The translations under genes were made by a program, and so were the position numbers. Under the pieces are notes generated by a model. The model saw only the letters and a program-made list of their open reading frames with translations, was not told where the DNA came from and ran no database searches. A stretch of 57,179 nucleotides of DNA from a virus (lineage: Duplodnaviria; Caudoviricetes), in IMG/VR virus record IMGVR_UViG_3300046167_000110, positions 1 to 57,179 of that record. The stretch is one strand, 5' to 3'. Below are positions 34,795 through 47,140 of this stretch, piece by piece; the stretch's first letter is position 1, and each line of letters starts with the position of its first letter.

Positions 34795-35637
34795 CTACAT
34801 GTTAGAGGAAGCTGACCCGTGTTGCATGATGTAAGCACCAGCGCCGTATACATCGTCTGCATCTTTCATATCATCTGTAAGATAGCCGTTCCAACCAGTT
34901 CCGTTACCATCCCACGTAATTACAAATTCATCAACTGCTTGTGTATATGTAATAGCTGTGTATGTTCCAACCATTATGTTGTTAGATGTGGCATAGTTAT
35001 CTATACTAGACGTCAACTCCGTATTGTTAGCTGCAGCCATGAAAGCACCTGCTTGTTGTGCATACTCTGCTACTGCATCAAGTGCGTTATTATAGTCTGC
35101 AACTTCAGAAGCGTCAAGGCTATATTCATCTGTAGCAATCATCTCTTGTAATGCAACCTGTTCTGGCTTTGTATCTGCTTCTGCAGCAGTGTCAGCAACA
35201 GATGTAGCTGTCATTAGTACAGTTGTAGCATCACCAAGTATATCAACTGCAGCAGTTAAGTTATTCATAGCCGCAGTATGTTCTTGGATAAACAACTGAT
35301 TCGCATTTTCTGCTGTAGCATAGTCATGGTTCATAACTTTACTTCTAGCATCTTCGTAAGCTACAAGCATTGCTGTAGTTACTTTAGCACCATCCAATGC
35401 TCCATCAACAATAACACCACCAACTTCAGCATATCCTATTGCACCAATACCTAAGTTCAAAGATAGTTGTAACCGATTATCTATTACATTGATAGAATTA
35501 ATCAGTGACTGTATCTTCTGATCCCCCGTCTGGCTGTAGTCGGGTGGTGGAAGTGACTCTGCGAGTAGACCTGAACCGCTCACTAATAGAGCGAGTGTCC
35601 CTGCTGTTGTTAGCAACTTTTGCTTCATTGATTTCAT
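34795..35637 (-). CDS. Predicted exported acidic helical protein
   Basis: MKQKLLTTAGTLALLVSGSGLLA signal-like N-terminus. Confidence 0.6.
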   Translation of the reverse strand: MKSMKQKLLTTAGTLALLVSGSGLLAESLPPPDYSQTGDQKIQSLINSINVIDNRLQLSLNLGIGAIGYAEVGGVIVDGALDGAKVTTAMLVAYEDARSKVMNHDYATAENANQLFIQEHTAAMNNLTAAVDILGDATTVLMTATSVADTAAEADTKPEQVALQEMIATDEYSLDASEVADYNNALDAVAEYAQQAGAFMAAANNTELTSSIDNYATSNNIMVGTYTAITYTQAVDEFVITWDGNGTGWNGYLTDDMKDADDVYGAGAYIMQHGSASSNM

Positions 35638-36241
35638 CTGTTAAATCCTCTCCAATTCTTAATAGACTGTCCCAAAACTCTTTATCTTCTCCATACCCCA
35701 CTATAAACGCTTGAGGATTTTCTCTATATTTATCTACTGCATCCTTACCCATGAGTAGCTTACCAGTTAAAACATCCATGATAGGACAGGGCGTACTGGC
35801 TAAAATCATGGCCTTAAAAACATCTGGATCTCCACAAATCGTTGATATCCCAGAAACTTGTAAACCAAGACCTCCTATCTGTTGTGGAGTCCCTAAAAGT
35901 CTAGCGTTTTTACGTCTATTACAATATTCATCTTGCCTCATAGTACCTTGAGAATATCCAAATAAACTAAGCTGTAATCCTGACGTTGTAGGTAATAAAC
36001 ACGAATCATTACCTCCGCCACCCATAACAGTAGGTGCTATACTGGACATTACAGGAGCAGGTTCACCTGCGCCCGTTGCATTGTAATTATTAGTCTCGCT
36101 TGTAGAATTATTATTGCTATCTACATTTGAATCTTGATAATTATTACTAAAGTCTCCAGTGACGTCATTGCTCTGCACATTTGTCGCTAAGAATATCTGT
36201 AAGATCAGTGTCCATACACATAAGTTGTAATGCTGCCTCAT
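35498..36241 (-). CDS. Predicted exported Cys-containing protein (start uncertain)
   Basis: Signal-like WTLILQIFLATNVQS; S.AP...DSC...C.RRK.AR...C...TPCP. Confidence 0.55.
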   Translation of the reverse strand: MRQHYNLCVWTLILQIFLATNVQSNDVTGDFSNNYQDSNVDSNNNSTSETNNYNATGAGEPAPVMSSIAPTVMGGGGNDSCLLPTTSGLQLSLFGYSQGTMRQDEYCNRRKNARLLGTPQQIGGLGLQVSGISTICGDPDVFKAMILASTPCPIMDVLTGKLLMGKDAVDKYRENPQAFIVGYGEDKEFWDSLLRIGEDLTDEINEAKVANNSRDTRSISERFRSTRRVTSTTRLQPDGGSEDTVTD

Positions 36242-36384: not shown

Positions 36385-36552
36385 TTAGTCTTTATTATAG
36401 TACCTATGTATAAGATCACCGCGAGTAACGCCTATATCTTGTAATTCTCTGTCTGTTAGGTTTTGTAGTAAGTATAAGTCTGCACTTGCTTGACGAGACT
36501 TGATAATAGATTTGTTTAAGCCTGAAACTGCTTCAAAGATTGTTCTAAACAT
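36385..36552 (-). CDS. DUF1127 (YjiS-like) small protein, 55 aa
   Basis: Hand translation MFRTIFEAVSGLNKSIIKSRQASADLYLLQNLTDRELQDIGVTRGDLIHRYYNKD; L..LTDR.L.DIG.TR.D signature; RBS AGGA. Confidence 0.85.
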   Translation of the reverse strand: MFRTIFEAVSGLNKSIIKSRQASADLYLLQNLTDRELQDIGVTRGDLIHRYYNKD

Positions 36553-37913: not shown

Positions 37914-38209
37914 TACCACTTCACCTTATTTGCCCAGTAAGCTGCACTCATCTTACCCTTTTTGATGTTCTTAGCGTGTCTAGCCTTAAATGAAGCACGT
38001 TTCTTCTTCATTCTATCAGATTCACCCTCTTTAGGTTTACCTGCAGTGCTTGCACCCTTCTCACCAAACTTAATATACTTGTACTTACCGCCCTCAGAAG
38101 CCATTACGTGATGGGATTTACCACTACCATCGTTTAACCGTTGAGGTTTATTAACGCCTTTTAACCCAGCGCTCTTCATTTTAGTTTTGACTCGTTCAGG
38201 TATAGCCAT
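37913..38209 (-). CDS. Small basic protein
   Basis: K.IKFG..G...RASF.ARH...SAAYWA.K.KW motif. Confidence 0.65.
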   Translation of the reverse strand: MAIPERVKTKMKSAGLKGVNKPQRLNDGSGKSHHVMASEGGKYKYIKFGEKGASTAGKPKEGESDRMKKKRASFKARHAKNIKKGKMSAAYWANKVKW

Positions 38210-38457
38210 TACTTCTTCTTTCCTGCTTTAGAATTACGTGGAAAACTACGGTTCTTAGCTTTTGTAGTTACAGCTAAGTTTTTACGGGCATTATTTCTAG
38301 GGTTGCCATCCCTATGATGTACATCCTTGCCATCACCCTTCTTAACGACACCACCCTGAGAAAGTTTAGCACGAGCACTATTACGAGATGCCCTCTTCTT
38401 TATCTGAGCAGGTTTGCCTTGGTAATTAGCATATTCTTTTTTATAATTTCTAGCCAT
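38209..38457 (-). CDS. Small basic HNH-like protein
   Basis: RNYKKEY...DVHHRDGNPRNN...NL...NRS. Confidence 0.6.
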   Translation of the reverse strand: MARNYKKEYANYQGKPAQIKKRASRNSARAKLSQGGVVKKGDGKDVHHRDGNPRNNARKNLAVTTKAKNRSFPRNSKAGKKK

Positions 38458-38713
38458 AGTCACGCTTTCTATCTGGATCTAACACGTCTCTACGATCTAG
38501 CATACCTTCTAAGTACATGGCTCTTTCAATATGATCTAATGTATATCGAACGCCAGTATTTGCTTCAATAGCAGCACGAATGTAAAATACGTCACTGCGA
38601 GGTATATGTATTCGGCTTATCTTATTAGAATTGCCTTCTGCTAAAGCAGAGTAAAACTCTTCAAGTACGTTATCGGATGCGTATAGTTGTATACGGCTAC
38701 GTGTCATTGTCAA
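38450..38713 (-). CDS. Hypothetical protein (start uncertain)
   Basis: VLEEFY...IHIPRSDVFYIR...TG..Y.L..IE.AM..EG; first ORF of the late arm. Confidence 0.6.
   Translation of the reverse strand: MTMTRSRIQLYASDNVLEEFYSALAEGNSNKISRIHIPRSDVFYIRAAIEANTGVRYTLDHIERAMYLEGMLDRRDVLDPDRKRDYG
38685..38713 (-). promoter_or_regulatory. Promoter motif TTGACA-N16-TACAACT
   Basis: Same spacing and consensus as the copies at 27328, 39033 and 50412; overlaps an ORF start. Confidence 0.55.
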
Positions 38714-38725
38714 TACCTATAATGT

Positions 38726-38854
38726 AAAAATAGGGTACGTGCCGCAAACTACGTGTCAGGAGAGGAGACAAGAGGAGAGAGTTACACAGTAAGTTTGTAA
38801 CACGTACCAGTAGTGTAACACTTATTATTAATACAAGTTTATGTGTGTTACATA
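38726..38854 (-). ncRNA. Candidate ~130 nt sRNA with an anti-Shine-Dalgarno CU-rich loop
   Basis: Own TTGACA-N17-TAACAT promoter; stem 1 UGUAACAC/GUGUUACA; long stem 2 closed by GGUACGUG/CACGUACC with loop CUCUCUCCUCUUGUCUCCUCUCC; U5 tail; G-U pairs form only on the minus strand. Confidence 0.7.
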
Positions 38855-38859
38855 CGAAT

Positions 38860-38888
38860 ATGTTACCGCATACCCAATATGTTGTCAA
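38860..38888 (-). promoter_or_regulatory. Sigma70-type promoter for the candidate sRNA
   Basis: TTGACA-17 nt-TAACAT. Confidence 0.65.
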
Positions 38889-39032
38889 CACTATAGTTTA
38901 ACTTTATGTGTTAAAACTCTTCCTATGTCCAGTATCCTATATGTAACACTTACTATATAGTTTAACTATTTCTTATTTATTACTTGTTTAAGTAAAAACT
39001 TAAGAGTTTAACTCTGTTTGCTCCTGCTCCGC

Positions 39033-39061
39033 AGTTATACTTATATAATACCCTGTGTCAA
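39033..39061 (-). promoter_or_regulatory. Promoter TTGACA-N16-TATAACT at the head of the late arm
   Basis: Matches the recurrent motif. Confidence 0.7.
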
Positions 39062-39592
39062 TCCGTAAAATGAGTATATCTGTAAGAAAGTTTTATTATA
39101 TTAGCTAATCCTTCTAATGTGTGACATTTATGCACCAGTAATGTGTGTCTGTCCGTATACATGCCTGGGTAAAGGTCGTTTCAAAATTCACTTCTGTGTG
39201 TTTCTACATATACACATAACCCTATACCCGGCGGTGGCTCACGCCCCTACCCCTTTTTGGTCTACTATCATGATAAAAGCTAGTAAAATATGGTGTAAGT
39301 TATTGTAATTGTTATGTTTTTATACTGATATATGATCAGTTATAGCTAAAAAGAGGTGTAAAAATAGGCATAATTAACAAAGTGCACAATAAATAGGCAA
39401 AGGATGCATAACCAAAAAAGACACCCCAATACCGGTAATCACAAAACCACCACCACCCCAAAAAAAAGCTTATACTATATAATACCAAAAAAAGTTTTTT
39501 ATACAAAAGTTAACCAATAGCTAAAAATACATAGAAAAAACATAATGAAAACACACACTTACAAGAAAGTTTATGAAATAGTAACTTTTTTC

Positions 39593-39621
39593 TTGCAATC
39601 TGTTTTGGTACATGCCACCTT
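39593..39621 (+). promoter_or_regulatory. Putative early promoter 1
   Basis: TTGCAA-N17-CACCTT with an extended TG and an A/T-rich upstream tract. Confidence 0.45.
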
Positions 39622-39721
39622 AAGAACATCGAAAGCGACAAGTTAACAGCGACGAGGCAAACGCCCTAGACTCAAATTAACAGCGTCCTAGACGATCAAG
39701 CCGGATAAGAGACCTGCAAAA

Positions 39722-39824
39722 GAATAAAAGAATTGAATAACTGAATACCGAATAAACTGAATAAAAAAATGATTGACTTAATTAGGAGAATATGCCCAGA
39801 TAAAGACACTGAATAACAGAATAA
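39722..39824 (+). repeat. Cluster of eight GAATA short direct repeats
   Basis: GAATA at 39722, 39735, 39743, 39750, 39759, 39788, 39811 and 39819. Confidence 0.75.
39773..39802 (+). promoter_or_regulatory. Putative early promoter 2
   Basis: TTGACT -35 after an A tract; ATGCC before the -10 as in promoter 1; weak -10. Confidence 0.4.
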
Positions 39825-39835
39825 AACAGACCCTA

Positions 39836-40092
39836 GCTAATGGATTTTAGCAGTCGACAAAATGAGCAGTGTAATGAACTGCATAGTGAAGAAACCTTAT
39901 TTGAGCGTGGTATGACAAAACCTAAACTCGATTGAACATAGGCGGATAGCACATAAGAACCTAGGCAGATCGGGTTTCTAGAATGGTGACTTGAATCAAT
40001 CCATCAGTAGTGCTTGCGGTGAATGTAGCTTGGATAGGCCCAGGACAGATGTGTCCAGGATAATTGTGGCCTATCTTACTTTATGTTCAAAC
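39836..40092 (+). ncRNA. Highly structured early leader RNA (multibranch)
   Basis: UUGAACAUA (39932) pairs with UAUGUUCAA (40082) and encloses GAUAGGCC/GGCCUAUC, GGACA/UGUCC and AGCAC/GUGCU stems; further hairpins upstream. Confidence 0.55.
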
Positions 40093-40107
40093 TATGGAGA
40101 GTGAGAG

Positions 40108-40875
40108 ATGAAACTTAAATTATTAGGCGTTGGTACAAATGCAAAAACTATTAAGGGTGATGGTGACGAATACTTAACGGCCATTATGTATATGACCCCA
40201 TGGAAAATTCTGATTGATGGCATGATGCGTAACTCTTGCCCTATGGCAGAGGAGGCTGGTTGTGTAGCACCTTGCTTAAATACTGCCGGACGTGGTGCAA
40301 TGAATGTTGTACAATCTGCCAGACAAAGAAAAGCTGAATGGTTTTATAGAGACCGCGATGCATTCATGGAACAACTACGCCAAGACATTACAAGTTTTGA
40401 GAAGTATTGCACCAAACGAGGCATTCAACCGGTTGTGCGTCTTAACGGTACAACTGACATTCGTTGGGAAAGCATAAAGATTGCCGGATATACTACGATT
40501 TTTGAGCTATTCCCTAATGTACAGTTTTATGACTACACTAAAATATCAAATCGTAAAACTAAGCATATTGCCAATTACCATTTGACATGGAGTTACAGCG
40601 GTGCAAAGCAATCCTATGCTGATAAGCTTGACAGCGCAATCGAGGCCGGTATGAATGTGGCGGTTGTATTTCGTAAACCAGTAGAGATTAAGGGAAATGC
40701 ATGGCGTAATTTACCGGTAGTTGATGGTGACGCCGACGACTTACGGATACTTGACCCTAAGGGCGGTCATGCGGTTGCATTGTATGCCAAGGGCAAGGCC
40801 AAGAAAGACAAAAGCGGTTTTGTAGTTGATATAGTTGAAGCTGAGTGGTCACGAAAGTTGGCCGAATATGCTTAA
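40108..40875 (+). CDS. Gp88-like protein (first early gene)
   Basis: CP.A..GC...CLN.AGRG, RLNGTTD, FYDYTK, NYHLT.SYS and DGD..DLR..D motifs. Confidence 0.7.
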   Translation: MKLKLLGVGTNAKTIKGDGDEYLTAIMYMTPWKILIDGMMRNSCPMAEEAGCVAPCLNTAGRGAMNVVQSARQRKAEWFYRDRDAFMEQLRQDITSFEKYCTKRGIQPVVRLNGTTDIRWESIKIAGYTTIFELFPNVQFYDYTKISNRKTKHIANYHLTWSYSGAKQSYADKLDSAIEAGMNVAVVFRKPVEIKGNAWRNLPVVDGDADDLRILDPKGGHAVALYAKGKAKKDKSGFVVDIVEAEWSRKLAEYA

Positions 40876-41156: not shown

Positions 41157-41470
41157 TGGATTGGAAAACATACATAACAGATTTAAATATACCTAAAGAT
41201 TGGACTTATAACGCGGATCATCACGCCGTATTGCCTAGTTATTATACAAGCACCGGTTATATTATTTATGTTGATAGCCACGATAAGAATGAGCGTTTAT
41301 TAAATTCTAAAGAGTGGAACGGTTGCGCCACAATGGATAATTTACACCCTAGGTTCACGGTATTTAGTGACGACTATGCAAGTGGTAATACGCTTGACAT
41401 TCCAGAGGAATTACTAGCTACTGATGATTTTAATGAAGTACTAAAGTTTGCAAAGGAGAGAAGCAAATGA
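41156..41470 (+). CDS. Hypothetical early protein
   Basis: 104 aa ORF coupled at both ends. Confidence 0.65.
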   Translation: MDWKTYITDLNIPKDWTYNADHHAVLPSYYTSTGYIIYVDSHDKNERLLNSKEWNGCATMDNLHPRFTVFSDDYASGNTLDIPEELLATDDFNEVLKFAKERSK

Positions 41471-44209: not shown

Positions 44210-45124
44210 ATGAATATCCCCAAGCAAAACTCTACCCTACAAATACTTGTAGATTTTTACTTAAATTCCAGGTTTTTCGCTCGTTTATCGCGTGTCTCTC
44301 AGCGCGACTACGAAGCTCACCTGAAAGCGGTATGTTCTACAGTAGTAGAAGGTCGTAAGCTTGGGGACTATCGCAATAAGAACCTTAAGGTTAGACACCT
44401 GATGCAAGCATACGAAACATGGCTTGAAACAGGTATAAGAACGGCAAACTACCGTCGCTCTGTTTTGATGGCTGCGTGGAAACATTCTATGCGCCACGAT
44501 ATAATGACACATGATCCTGTTAGCTTAGTAAAGACGGTATCGTCTCCTCCTAAACGAACCCGATGGAGCAAGGAACATGTACAGAGCTTTCTTAAGACTT
44601 CTTATGGCGACTTCCGTTGGCGTAGCATTGGTCTGATCGTCCATATGGCATATGATTGGGGACAACGTGTGGGTGACATGCGTGTTCTCACTTGGAACAA
44701 GCTAGACTTGACCCAGTGTCGCTTGGACTTAACTCAGAGTAAGCGTAATGCAGAGATTCATCTCCCAATCTCTCAAGGATTATGCGACATGCTACGCCAA
44801 CAAAAGGAAGACTTTGGGTTTCAAGAATACGTTGCGCCGCGTGTTAAGCCAAGAGCAGGTGCATACACACCTTACGATAAAACAGAAATAGGTATTATAA
44901 TCAATGAGGTACTACACGAAGCTAATCTTCCTATGACTTTAACTGCTATGGATCTACGTCGTACTGCAGTTACTGAAATGATGGAGGGTGGTGTTGATGC
45001 TGTAGGTATCATGCAAGTCACTGGCCATAAAAACATTGGCTCTATTAAACCTTACATGGTAAATACATTCAGTGGTGCAACCAGAGCATTGTCAGCTAGA
45101 GGAGAAGAAGATGAACATTCGTGA
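44210..45124 (+). CDS. int: Tyrosine recombinase/integrase
   Basis: GQRVGD (R), QSK (K), MDLRRT (xxxR), TGH and PY catalytic tyrosine. Confidence 0.85.
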   Translation: MNIPKQNSTLQILVDFYLNSRFFARLSRVSQRDYEAHLKAVCSTVVEGRKLGDYRNKNLKVRHLMQAYETWLETGIRTANYRRSVLMAAWKHSMRHDIMTHDPVSLVKTVSSPPKRTRWSKEHVQSFLKTSYGDFRWRSIGLIVHMAYDWGQRVGDMRVLTWNKLDLTQCRLDLTQSKRNAEIHLPISQGLCDMLRQQKEDFGFQEYVAPRVKPRAGAYTPYDKTEIGIIINEVLHEANLPMTLTAMDLRRTAVTEMMEGGVDAVGIMQVTGHKNIGSIKPYMVNTFSGATRALSARGEEDEHS

Positions 45125-47122: not shown

Positions 47123-47140
47123 AAAACATCAAAGGAGAGA

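What the first reader, a model, noticed from the sequence alone, without database searches (positions are those of the whole stretch)
38726..38888. Phage-encoded sRNA with twin anti-Shine-Dalgarno motifs: a candidate early/host-to-late translation switch
Seen: a minus-strand (late-direction) unit with its own TTGACA-N17-TAACAT promoter, a 5' hairpin (38814-38821/38845-38852), a long imperfect stem of about 22 bp (closed by 38734-38741/38801-38808) and a U5 tail. The G-U pairs work only on the minus strand. The 23-nt loop is CUCUCUCCUCUUGUCUCCUCUCC. Its UCUCUCCU is perfectly complementary to AGGAGAGA, the RBS of the methyltransferase (41454), helicase (47133), DNA polymerase (48372) and mazG (53326) genes; GGAGAG also precedes 40108 and 40944. 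Established: alphaproteobacterial cuckoo/CcsR and AbcR sRNAs act through CU-rich anti-SD loops. Inference: the phage makes an anti-SD RNA late in infection to silence GGAG-type host and early mRNAs while its late mRNAs escape.
Basis: partly seen in the sequence, partly recalled or inferred. Interest (0 to 1): 0.9.

Follow-up and report, generated by a model that had tools for sequence, protein, structure and literature searches.

The report
Conserved CU-loop leader RNA in marine phages
At the head of the structural-gene operon of a very abundant group of marine phages sits a conserved two-hairpin RNA whose large loop is rich in C and U and looks like the anti-ribosome-binding-site small RNAs of the host's relatives, and the same operon always carries a small DUF1127 protein of the kind that handles those RNAs in bacteria.

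Summary
Every coordinate given checks out, and the minus strand folds as described (-34.1 kcal/mol, z -4.74). It is one member of a family, with one copy per contig in 92 contigs of HMO-2011-type marine phages. A covariance-model alignment gives 96.4% of cells paired, 18 of 28 pairs changed on both sides, and 161 G-U cells against 1 A-C cell, so it is an RNA of the late strand. A sigma-70-type promoter sits 7-12 nt upstream in 47 of 60 distinct copies. The P2 loop is always pyrimidine-rich, with CUCC in 60 of 60 and twice or more in 57 of 60. No Rfam family matches. New here: a DUF1127 gene lies downstream on the same strand (30 of 30 loci with at least 7 kb downstream). In alphaproteobacteria this family's protein CcaF1 binds and matures the CCUCCUCCC-loop 'cuckoo'/CcsR sRNAs. 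My best reading (0.45) is a cuckoo-like anti-SD riboregulator released from the late-operon leader. Early genes do carry more GGAG/GAGG sites (pooled 67/159 against 51/211). However, the loop-RBS matches do not beat a reversed-loop control, do not covary, and no discrete transcript or late timing is shown.

The parts
38860..38888 (-). Promoter: TTGACA (38888-38883), 17 nt, TAACAT (38865-38860). The predicted start is near 38855.
   Evidence: Found by the promoter scan. A TTGACA-like hexamer, 16-18 nt, then TAnnnT ends 7-12 nt before P1 in 47 of 60 distinct relatives. TTGACA is exact in 43 and the spacing is 17 nt in 41.
38814..38852 (-). P1, the 5' hairpin. Arms are 38852-38845 and 38821-38814. 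The loop is AU-rich in this phage.
   Evidence: Seen in the folds. All 7 P1 pairs show changes on both sides, with 97.8% of cells paired. In one clade (4 of 60 distinct sequences) the P1 loop is also CU-rich.
38734..38808 (-). P2, a long imperfect hairpin of 22 pairs.
   Evidence: Seen in the fold. It corresponds to helices 2 and 3, where 11 of 21 pairs change on both sides. G-U cells number 161 against 1 A-C cell over the whole structure.
38757..38783 (-). Unpaired CU-rich loop with twin CUCC/CUCCUC boxes.
   Evidence: Left unpaired in every fold. Pyrimidine share is 73-100% (median 83%). CUCC occurs in 60 of 60 and twice or more in 57 of 60. CUCCUC occurs in 55 of 60. CCUCCUCCC is exact in 0 of 60.
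38726..38730 (-). U5 run, starting 3 nt after P2. It may be a leaky intrinsic terminator or an RNase E-prone stretch.
   Evidence: Read from the sequence. In the 12 nt after the stem, the longest T run is 5 or more in 28 of 60, exactly 4 in 8 of 60, and 3 or fewer in 24 of 60. The terminator scan did not call it because the loop exceeds 8 nt.
38717..38733 (-). P3, a small hairpin (CUAU/AUAG) that uses part of the U run.
   Evidence: Seen in the fold. Different small hairpins occupy the same place in relatives, by my reading. Not tested formally.
38708..38716 (-). Invariant GTATTGACA directly before the start codon. Its role is unknown.
   Evidence: Invariant columns in A2. TTGAC is present in 59 of 60 printed tails, all but L071. 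It has the same sequence context as the -35 of the element's own promoter.
38450..38707 (-). First gene of the late-strand operon (P0001, 85 aa). It has no Shine-Dalgarno site and no known family.
   Evidence: Translation. There are 519 relatives in viral contigs. It has no Pfam, PHROGs or NCBIfam match. The model has pLDDT 65.6 and no fold match at E <= 0.001.
36385..36552 (-). DUF1127 small protein gene (P0002, 55 aa) in the same operon, 2.2 kb downstream of the RNA.
   Evidence: PF06568 at 27.6 bits against a cut-off of 23.3. The same gene lies on the same strand in 10 of 10 genomes. It is also found in 30 of 30 element-bearing loci with at least 7 kb downstream.
41454..41461 (+). AGGAGAGA at the methyltransferase ribosome-binding site. 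It is a candidate target only; the others are at 47133, 48372 and 53326.
   Evidence: Positions and gene names. Targeting is inference, and the match is not above the composition control.

Best explanation
This is a conserved, structured non-coding RNA of HMO-2011-type marine phages. It is transcribed on the late (structural-gene) strand from its own sigma-70-type promoter and forms the first ~130 nt of the late-operon transcript. It has a 5' hairpin (P1) and a long hairpin (P2) that holds 13-30 unpaired nucleotides, nearly all C and U, with two CUCC/CUCCUC boxes.

I read it as a phage counterpart of the alphaproteobacterial cuckoo/CcsR riboregulators.

- The short RNA would be released from the leader, by partial termination at the U run where one exists or by RNase E cutting in the AU-rich stretch after P2.
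- Its CU boxes would pair with GGAG/GAGG Shine-Dalgarno regions of host and/or phage mRNAs and block or retune their translation.
- The DUF1127 protein encoded 1-7 kb downstream in the same operon would be its binding and maturation partner, as CcaF1 is for CcsR.

Shown: the structure, the strand, the promoter motif, the loop composition, a single copy per genome, and the linkage to DUF1127.

Inferred: release as a discrete RNA, base pairing with Shine-Dalgarno sites, the identity of the targets, the timing, and any contact with the DUF1127 protein.
For: Family and structure:
- There is one sense-strand match per contig in 92 contigs and a single match in the window (130.2 bits). There is none in the other 50 kb of CRP-207.
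- 96.4% of cells are paired. 18 of 28 pairs change on both sides. 0 of 500 shuffles reach the observed values. Slid controls pair only 21-53%.
- An independent MAFFT/RNAalifold alignment also keeps the basal stem, with CG to UA in 8 of 51 sequences.

Strand: there are 161 G-U cells against 1 A-C cell, so pairing is 96.4% on the sense strand and 86.7% on the antisense strand.

Promoter: present in 47 of 60 distinct copies.

Loop:
- CUCC in 60 of 60 and twice or more in 57 of 60. There are 0-1 G in 51 of 60.
- CRP-603 keeps a CU loop on very different stems.
- One clade has CU-rich loops in both hairpins.

DUF1127: on the same strand in 10 of 10 genomes. It is found in 30 of 30, 34 of 35 and 13 of 26 loci with at least 7 kb, 4-7 kb and under 4 kb downstream, at a median of 2332 nt.

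Known biology, from passages read:
- Cuckoo RNAs are 2-4 adjacent hairpins with CCUCCUCCC loops in Rhodobacterales and Rhizobiales (PMC4615179).
- CcaF1 (DUF1127) binds CcsR1 and promotes its RNase E maturation. CcsR RNAs come from the 3' UTR of ccaF1 in R. sphaeroides, and apparently from the 5' UTR of a DUF1127 gene in S. meliloti (PMC8034643).

Shine-Dalgarno sites: early genes carry more GGAG/GAGG, pooled 67/159 against 51/211, p = 0.0003.
Against: - No discrete ~130-nt transcript is shown. The one RNA-library contig over the place (X23, 212 nt, 38647-38855, 10 differences) runs from about the predicted start through P2 into the ORF.
- The longest U run after P2 is 3 or fewer in 24 of 60 copies.
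- Loop-RBS matches of 7 nt or more (early 25/159, late 9/211) are matched by a reversed-loop control (20/159, 8/211). The cross-genome matrix shows no own-loop excess.
- The Shine-Dalgarno asymmetry is absent in G002, G003 and G004. My gene starts there are crude longest-ORF calls.
- CRP-1 and CRP-345 have DUF1127 but no CU-loop element in the leader. So the two features are not strictly tied.
- The DUF1127 gene is 1.2-6.7 kb away, not adjacent as in the bacterial loci.
- The cuckoo motif is never exact (0 of 60), and no Rfam model matches.
Confidence: 0.45

Rival explanations
1. It is a purely cis-acting leader or attenuator of the late operon. A constitutive promoter makes a short leader that stops at P2 plus the U run, or at a Rho-dependent site for which the C-rich, G-poor loop is the loading site. 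Late genes are read only when a phage factor lets RNA polymerase through, as at lambda PR'-6S RNA-tR' with Q. On this view the short RNA is a by-product.
For: - The element always sits between a conserved near-consensus promoter and the first late-strand gene, even where that first gene differs (L071/G005).
- A stable GC-closed stem is followed by a T run of 4 or more in 36 of 60 copies.
- These phages show no RNA polymerase gene in the annotation of CRP-207. A strong host-type promoter in front of late genes therefore needs some control after initiation. This is inference.
- The RNA-library contig bridging P2 into the ORF shows that read-through molecules exist, weakly.
- The lambda Q system and Rho rut properties are recalled, not from a call.
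Against: - It does not explain why the loop keeps twin CUCC/CUCCUC boxes over clades whose stems have drifted.
- It does not explain why P1 acquires a CU loop in one clade.
- The U run is poor in 24 of 60 copies.
- A loop of 13-30 nt is short for a Rho loading site and long for an intrinsic terminator.
- No antiterminator gene was identified. I did not search for one specifically.
Confidence: 0.3
2. The RNA is made late and silences GGAG-type host and phage early mRNAs while weak-SD late mRNAs escape, giving an early-to-late translation switch. It is a special case of the best explanation.
For: - AGGAGAGA lies at four early ribosome-binding sites: 6 occurrences against 1.22 expected, and 0 of 100 shuffles reach 6.
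- GGAG/GAGG before early against late genes: window 16/29 against 6/41, CRP-207 24/37 against 8/37, G005 14/30 against 8/37, pooled p = 0.0003.
- Duplex energies with the loop are lower for early genes: window medians -7.7 against -5.5, CRP-207 -11.9 against -7.0.
Against: - The same early/late difference is seen with a plain anti-SD 9-mer. It therefore reflects Shine-Dalgarno strength, not the loop.
- The reversed-loop control and the cross-genome matrix show no specificity or covariation.
- There is no asymmetry in G002, G003 or G004.
- The promoter is a sigma-70 consensus type with no sign that it is late.
- One late-strand start (35637) also has an 8-nt perfect match.
Confidence: 0.17
3. 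It is a translation aid for the SD-less first gene. The unpaired pyrimidine loop would be a standby or ribosomal-protein-S1 landing site about 50 nt before the start codon.
For: - P0001 has no Shine-Dalgarno site in the window or in relatives. The sequence before the ATG is the invariant GTRTTGACA.
- The start codon is unpaired in the folds.
- The preference of S1 for pyrimidine-rich single strands is recalled, not from a call.
Against: - In G005/L071 the element precedes a different gene, and P0001 lies 1.4 kb further on.
- Many late genes have weak Shine-Dalgarno sites without such an element.
- Conservation of specific boxes is not expected for S1.
Confidence: 0.08
4. It is a DNA-level element, such as an operator, origin, cruciform or packaging site, in the control region between the divergent modules.
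For: - It lies in a 1.4-kb non-coding region with many repeats.
- GTGTTAC-like words recur there.
- The 3' arm is almost invariant.
Against: - 161 G-U cells against 1 A-C cell means pairing is kept on one strand only.
- The invariant 3' arm is G/U-rich, which by itself lets the partner arm drift through wobble pairs.
- The inverted repeat varies in sequence while pairing is kept.
Confidence: 0.03

Closest known systems
Cuckoo / CcsR (RSs0680, ar14) sRNAs of Rhodobacterales and Rhizobiales, with their DUF1127 partner CcaF1
   Same: - It has adjacent hairpins with unpaired CU-rich loops that look like an anti-Shine-Dalgarno sequence.
- The stems drift by compensatory change while the loops stay.
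- It is transcribed together with a DUF1127 gene.
- A 5'-UTR-derived arrangement is described for S. meliloti.
- The host clade of the phages (Roseobacter group) itself carries cuckoo RNAs.

Sources: passages of PMC4615179 and PMC8034643.
   Different: - It is encoded by a phage.
- The motif CCUCCUCCC is never exact: 0 of 60, with 14 of 60 within one mismatch.
- Only one of the two hairpins carries the CU loop in 56 of 60 copies.
- P2 is 57-77 nt long, against the family's 24-50 nt.
- The DUF1127 gene is 1.2-6.7 kb away with other genes between.
- There is no Rfam match.
C/CU-rich-loop anti-SD sRNAs of Firmicutes (RNAIII hairpins with UCCC; LhrC)
   Same: Several pyrimidine boxes are displayed in hairpin loops, including a loop of the last, terminator-like hairpin. 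RNAIII's UCCC loops are described in a passage of PMC4615179. For LhrC I saw only the search listing and abstract; the terminator-loop detail is recalled.
   Different: There is no sequence or structural homology. The hosts are different. This loop is far longer (13-30 nt) and sits in an mRNA leader.
Lambda PR' leader (6S RNA) with terminator tR' and Q antitermination (recalled, no call)
   Same: A strong host-type promoter is followed by a short structured leader. That is followed by a terminator-like hairpin directly in front of the whole late operon.
   Different: There is no known Q-like gene here. The lambda leader has no conserved pyrimidine loop. In 24 of 60 copies here the U run is weak.
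Known phage- or prophage-encoded trans sRNAs (reviewed in PMC12197685, search listing only)
   Same: It would be a small regulatory RNA encoded by a phage.
   Different: Those in the listing come mostly from enterobacterial prophages and act on particular targets. None in the listings I saw is a CU-loop anti-SD RNA of a marine phage, and none is tied to DUF1127.

Membership tests
Cuckoo / CcsR RNA family | 2-4 adjacent hairpins joined by short linkers (10 nt or fewer) | tested here: met
   P1 and P2 are separated by about 5 nt in the window. Both helices are supported by covariation.
Cuckoo / CcsR RNA family | Every hairpin loop carries CCUCCUCCC | tested here: not met
   In P2 loops the motif is exact in 0 of 60, within 1 mismatch in 14 of 60 and within 2 mismatches in 50 of 60. 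In P1 loops it is found in 0 of 60 at up to 2 mismatches. P1 loops are CU-rich in only 4 of 60.
Cuckoo / CcsR RNA family | Hairpins of 24-50 nt with loops of 9-27 nt (limits of the published matcher, PMC4615179) | tested here: not met
   P2 spans 57-77 nt. Its loop is 13-30 nt, median 29, in the model alignment. P1 (about 39 nt) fits.
Cuckoo / CcsR RNA family | Neighbourhood with a DUF1127 gene (CIN1 locus) and co-transcription with it | tested here: inconclusive
   DUF1127 lies on the same strand downstream in 10 of 10 genomes and in 30 of 30 long loci. However, it is 1.2-6.7 kb away with genes between. Co-transcription is not shown.
Any Rfam 15 family (including alphaproteobacterial sRNA models) | Match to a curated covariance model | tested here: not met
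   There are 0 matches at gathering score in the whole window. Nothing falls on the element at E <= 10 in 38600-40150. Nothing falls on it at E <= 1 in four relatives.
Intrinsic (Rho-independent) terminator | GC-rich stem, a small loop, and a U tract directly after the stem | tested here: inconclusive
   The stem base is GC-rich, but the loop is 27 nt and the U5 run starts 3 nt after the stem. The scan did not call it. In the family the T run is 4 or more in 36 of 60 and 3 or fewer in 24 of 60.
Lambda-type late leader with antitermination | A promoter-proximal leader ending in a terminator, plus a phage antiterminator protein | not tested
   The leader geometry fits. No search for a Q-like or N-like protein was made. 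PHROGs on 20 proteins named none.
Trans-acting base-pairing sRNA | A discrete stable transcript and demonstrated target pairing | not testable with these tools
   Only assembled contigs of RNA libraries were available. One of them bridges the element and the ORF. No raw-read ends could be seen.

The most novel reading that the evidence does not exclude
HMO-2011-type phages are among the most abundant viruses of the surface ocean. On this reading they carry their own riboregulatory module: a cuckoo-like RNA with twin anti-Shine-Dalgarno boxes plus a DUF1127 RNA-binding protein. Both would be expressed from the late operon. Together they would take over the host's CcsR/CcaF1-type control of translation and RNA turnover. 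They would shut down GGAG-led host and early phage messages and favour the weak-SD late messages.
Probability: 0.25. Interest if true: 0.9.

Novelty: new variant of a known kind. Interest (0 to 1): 0.78.

Why it matters
Few trans-acting regulatory RNAs are known from lytic or marine phages. In the library searched I found none in the HMO-2011-type group. The main comparative paper on the group holds none of the words intergenic, promoter, noncoding or DUF1127. Searches for cuckoo/CcsR/CcaF1 or DUF1127 together with phage gave no paper on the subject.

A covariation-supported RNA family that is absent from Rfam would give a first handle on how these phages time their late genes without an RNA polymerase of their own. 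It is present once per genome in a globally abundant phage group. It is also linked to a protein family whose only characterised function is sRNA binding and maturation.

It would also show whether viruses copy the host's anti-SD riboregulators. Cultured pairs exist (CRP-207, CRP-603 and their Rhodobacteraceae hosts), so the question can be tested directly.

Tried and rejected
**Rfam.** There was no match on the element in the window or in four relatives. The window has no tRNA or tmRNA.

**Coding reading.** The 64-aa ORF at 38697-38891 overlaps the element. I rejected it because P2 lengths vary (57, 59, 68-77 nt), mostly by steps that are not multiples of three, while pairing covaries.

**Alternative pairing.** I considered pairing of the P1 5' arm with the GTGTTGACA before the ATG. 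I rejected it by eye: in the L035 clade P1 changes but that word does not.

**TTGACA before the ATG as a second promoter.** The only -10-like word at 16 nt is TACAAC, which lacks the final T and lies in conserved codons. This is left open.

**Upstream motif GCGGAGCAGGAGC as the loop's partner.** It is exact in 25 of 81 other loci and lies within 330 nt upstream in 16 of 41 distinct P2 types. It is invariant where present, so it does not covary with the loop.

**Other short words.** GTATAACT (8 against 4.1 expected) and AACTATA (19 against 19.0) are not enriched.

**Loop-RBS specificity and covariation.** Both tests were negative.

**Bacterial genomes.**
- The 19-mer pattern hit 8 contigs, about what chance allows by my estimate.
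- Only one matches the model: L187, at the end of a 7.9-kb MAG contig, 39.2 bits.
- I therefore found no host-chromosome copy.

**RNA runs.** Only Logan contigs of 4 RNA-labelled runs could be laid.
- Depth is 2-6 and the pieces are scattered.
- X23 covers 38647-38855 and X22 covers 38858-39008.
- Both stop near the predicted start with no loose end, which is at most a weak hint.
- Parts without cover mean nothing.

**P0001.** It has no family match. The model has pLDDT 65.6 and pTM 0.46. Foldseek against PDB gave 0 matches at E <= 0.001.

**P0002 relatives.** The search for homologous proteins gave only 4 close clusters, all PF06568 and without names. This says nothing on the donor.

**Papers.**
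- The pelagiphage transcriptome paper PMC12753301 (passages) concerns HTVC019P-type and HTVC023P-type phages, not this group.
- Supplementary files of papers were closed. Supplementary gene tables of PMC9038755 could mention DUF1127 or the leader, and I could not see them.

**The search of earlier findings.** It was closed and not tried again.
Full report
**What the window is.** The window is a complete 57,179-nt virus record. Its nearest named relatives are the HMO-2011-type roseophages CRP-207, CRP-1, CRP-345 and CRP-603. The layout matches CRP-207.
- Replication and nucleotide-metabolism genes lie on the plus strand from 40108.
- Small genes, lysis, terminase, portal, capsid and tail genes lie on the minus strand from 38707 down to 480.
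- A 1.4-kb non-coding region separates the two sets.

It also finds an integrase at 44210.

**The observation.** Every coordinate in the finding is right.
- The minus-strand RNA folds into P1 (38852-38814) and a 22-pair P2 (38808-38734) with a 27-nt open loop. The energy is -34.1 kcal/mol and z is -4.74.
- The plus strand folds less well (z -3.19) and loses the two G-U pairs.
- AGGAGAGA is over-represented: 6 against 1.22 expected, and 0 of 100 shuffles reach 6. Four copies lie just before early-gene start codons.
- A pyrimidine run of this size is not rare in one genome. The case therefore rests on comparison with relatives.

**A family of RNAs.** The first minus-strand gene (P0001, 85 aa) has 519 relatives in viral contigs, of which the best 80 were kept.
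- In 73 of the 80 loci the same element lies directly upstream. In L071 it lies 1.4 kb further up.
- L074-L079 have none (best 15.2 bits).
- An exact 19-mer from the 3' arm is found in 85 viral contig stretches.
- A covariance model built from 23 sequences finds exactly one strong sense-strand match per contig in 92 contigs. It finds one in the window (130.2 bits) and none in the remaining 50 kb of CRP-207.

On the 60 distinct sequences:
- 96.4% of cells pair, and 18 of 28 pairs show changes on both sides (66 cells).
- No shuffle out of 500 reaches the observed values, and slid controls pair at 21-53%.
- That alignment is fitted to the model. A MAFFT/RNAalifold alignment made without it keeps the basal stem too, with CG to UA in 8 of 51 and GC to AU in 1 of 51.
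- CRP-603 has the same architecture on quite different stem sequences (24.5 bits).

**Strand and transcription.**
- Pair cells are 1429 Watson-Crick, 161 G-U, 1 A-C and 58 other. Pairing is thus 96.4% on this strand and 86.7% on the other. This is an RNA of the late strand, not a DNA cruciform.
- A TTGACA-like hexamer, 16-18 nt, then TAnnnT ends 7-12 nt before P1 in 47 of 60 distinct copies. TTGACA is exact in 43 and the spacing is 17 nt in 41. The -10 is mostly TACACT or TATACT. The other 13 mostly keep the -10 with a poorer -35.
- In my first pairwise alignment the promoter seemed missing from CRP-207. That was an alignment artefact: TTGTAA-N17-TATACT is there.

**The loop.**
- P2 loops are 13-30 nt long (median 29) and 73-100% pyrimidine.
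- They hold 0 or 1 G in 51 of 60.
- CUCC occurs in 60 of 60 and twice or more in 57 of 60. CUCCUC occurs in 55 of 60 and UGUCUCC in 43 of 60.
- In four distinct sequences of one clade the P1 loop is CU-rich as well (GUUCCUCUCCCUCCUU).
- The near-invariant 3' arm (GUAGUUUGCGRCACGUACC) needs no extra function. It is G/U-rich, so its partner arm can drift through wobble pairs. This is inference.

**What follows the hairpin.**
- In the 12 nt after P2 the longest T run is 5 or more in 28 of 60, exactly 4 in 8 of 60, and 3 or fewer in 24 of 60. An intrinsic terminator is plausible in many members, including the window (U5 after a 3-nt spacer), but it is not a family constant.
- The U run can also pair with a downstream A-rich stretch in a small third hairpin.
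- Next comes an invariant GTRTTGAC(A), present in 59 of 60, at 0-9 nt from the start codon of an SD-less gene. Its role is unknown.
- In G005 a different ORF follows the element. The element therefore belongs to the operon's head, not to P0001.

**The DUF1127 link (new here).** CRP-603's annotation lists a DUF1127 protein on the late strand.
- The window has one too: P0002, 55 aa, 36552-36385, with PF06568 at 27.6 bits against a cut-off of 23.3.
- So do G001-G005 and CRP-207, CRP-1, CRP-345 and CRP-603. That is 10 of 10 genomes, always on the element's strand.
- With an HMM built from six phage copies, a DUF1127 ORF lies downstream on the same strand in three groups of element-bearing loci: 30 of 30 with at least 7 kb downstream, 34 of 35 with 4-7 kb, and 13 of 26 with less.
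- The distance is 1174-4382 nt, median 2332, n = 77.

In Rhodobacter sphaeroides the DUF1127 protein CcaF1 binds the CcsR ('cuckoo') sRNAs and promotes their RNase E maturation. Each CcsR RNA has two hairpins with CCUCCUCCC anti-SD loops. They are cut from the 3' UTR of ccaF1, and in S. meliloti apparently from the 5' UTR of a DUF1127 gene (passages of PMC8034643). Cuckoo RNAs occur in Ruegeria, Sulfitobacter and other members of the phages' host clade (PMC4615179).

The link is not strict. CRP-1 and CRP-345 have DUF1127 but a different leader with no CU loop.

**Testing the early/late switch.** I looked for GGAG or GAGG in the 22 nt before start codons. Gene starts are my own longest-ORF calls, and ORFs on the wrong strand of each module were dropped.

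| Genome | Early | Late | p |
|---|---|---|---|
| window | 16/29 | 6/41 | 0.0005 |
| G001 | 13/29 | 8/32 | 0.12 |
| G002 | 7/19 | 7/33 | 0.33 |
| G003 | 12/34 | 14/32 | 0.62 |
| G004 | 5/18 | 8/36 | 0.74 |
| G005 | 14/30 | 8/37 | 0.04 |
| pooled | 67/159 | 51/211 | 0.0003 |

With GenBank starts, CRP-207 gives 24/37 against 8/37. The asymmetry is therefore real in some members, but it is not general.

- Perfect matches of 7 nt or more between the phage's own loop and ribosome-binding sites: early 25/159, late 9/211.
- The reversed loop gives 20/159 and 8/211. The six-by-six genome/loop matrix has no diagonal excess.
- A plain anti-SD 9-mer separates early from late genes as well as the loop does.

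Hence the loop could bind any GA-rich Shine-Dalgarno region, but nothing shows that it is tuned to the early genes.

**Expression.** Twenty DNA runs hold the stretch. Four RNA-labelled runs hold small parts, and only as assembled contigs.
- One 212-nt contig of a relative covers 38647-38855. It runs from about the predicted start through P1 and P2 into the ORF.
- Another stops at 38858 coming from upstream.
- This is at most a weak hint for the start site and for read-through. It is no evidence for a discrete sRNA.

**Verdict.** The finding is a genuine, widespread RNA family that does not match any family of Rfam release 15 (4,227 families). In form and in gene company it is closest to the cuckoo/CcsR-CcaF1 system. 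It fails that family's defining motif and size limits, so I file it as working like one rather than as a member.

Whether it acts in trans, in cis, or both remains open. In trans it would be an anti-SD regulator. In cis it would be an attenuator, a Rho loading site or a standby site.

I found no paper in the library searched that describes it. Supplements were closed.

Noticed in passing
window 39020-39061 (-): A second promoter-like site points in the same direction: TTGACA 39061-39056, 16 nt, TATAAC 39039-39034. It is followed at once by the purine-rich word GCGGAGCAGGAGC (39032-39020). A 25-nt block is identical in CRP-207. The 13-mer is exact in 25 of 81 other loci and occurs in 16 of 41 distinct P2 types. 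No ORF follows it.
   Followed up: partly
window about 39220-39262 (-): A G-rich block (GGGG..GGGGCGTG.GCCAC..GGG) in the control region is conserved with CRP-207 and G005. Its function is unknown.
   Followed up: no
window 38888-39013: Three direct copies of AGTTTAACT-type words (family D2) lie just upstream of the element's -35. They are conserved in relatives together with GGACATAGGAAGAGTTT. They may be regulator sites.
   Followed up: no
window 39716-39823: AT-rich direct repeats (ATAAAAGAATTGAATAACTGAATA family, D1/D5) lie between the divergent modules. They look like iterons and may mark an origin.
   Followed up: no
window 44210-45124 (+): A tyrosine integrase (phrog_1, E 5e-31) lies in the early module, as in CRP-207 gp15. 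The phage may be temperate. PMC9038755 says most members of subgroups I and III have one.
   Followed up: partly
window 38209-38463 (-): The second gene of the late-strand operon has an HNH_3 endonuclease motif (PF13392, 31.7 bits).
   Followed up: no
whole window; L168/L001 (CRP-207): The two modules use different ribosome-binding sites. The early module mostly has GGAG/GAGG. The late module mostly has AGGA-type or weak sites (AGGA not followed by G: window early 6/29, late 17/41). The pattern is not general in the family.
   Followed up: yes
L187 7707-7827 (+): A copy of the element (39.2 bits) lies at the end of a 7.9-kb contig binned into a Flavobacterium MAG. It is probably a mis-binned phage contig.
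   Followed up: partly
window 35646-35653 (-): GGAGAGGA lies 8 nt before the ATG at 35637 on the late strand. It is an 8-nt perfect complement of the loop, UCCUCUCC. The ORF it leads overlaps the preceding ORF by 140 nt.
   Followed up: no
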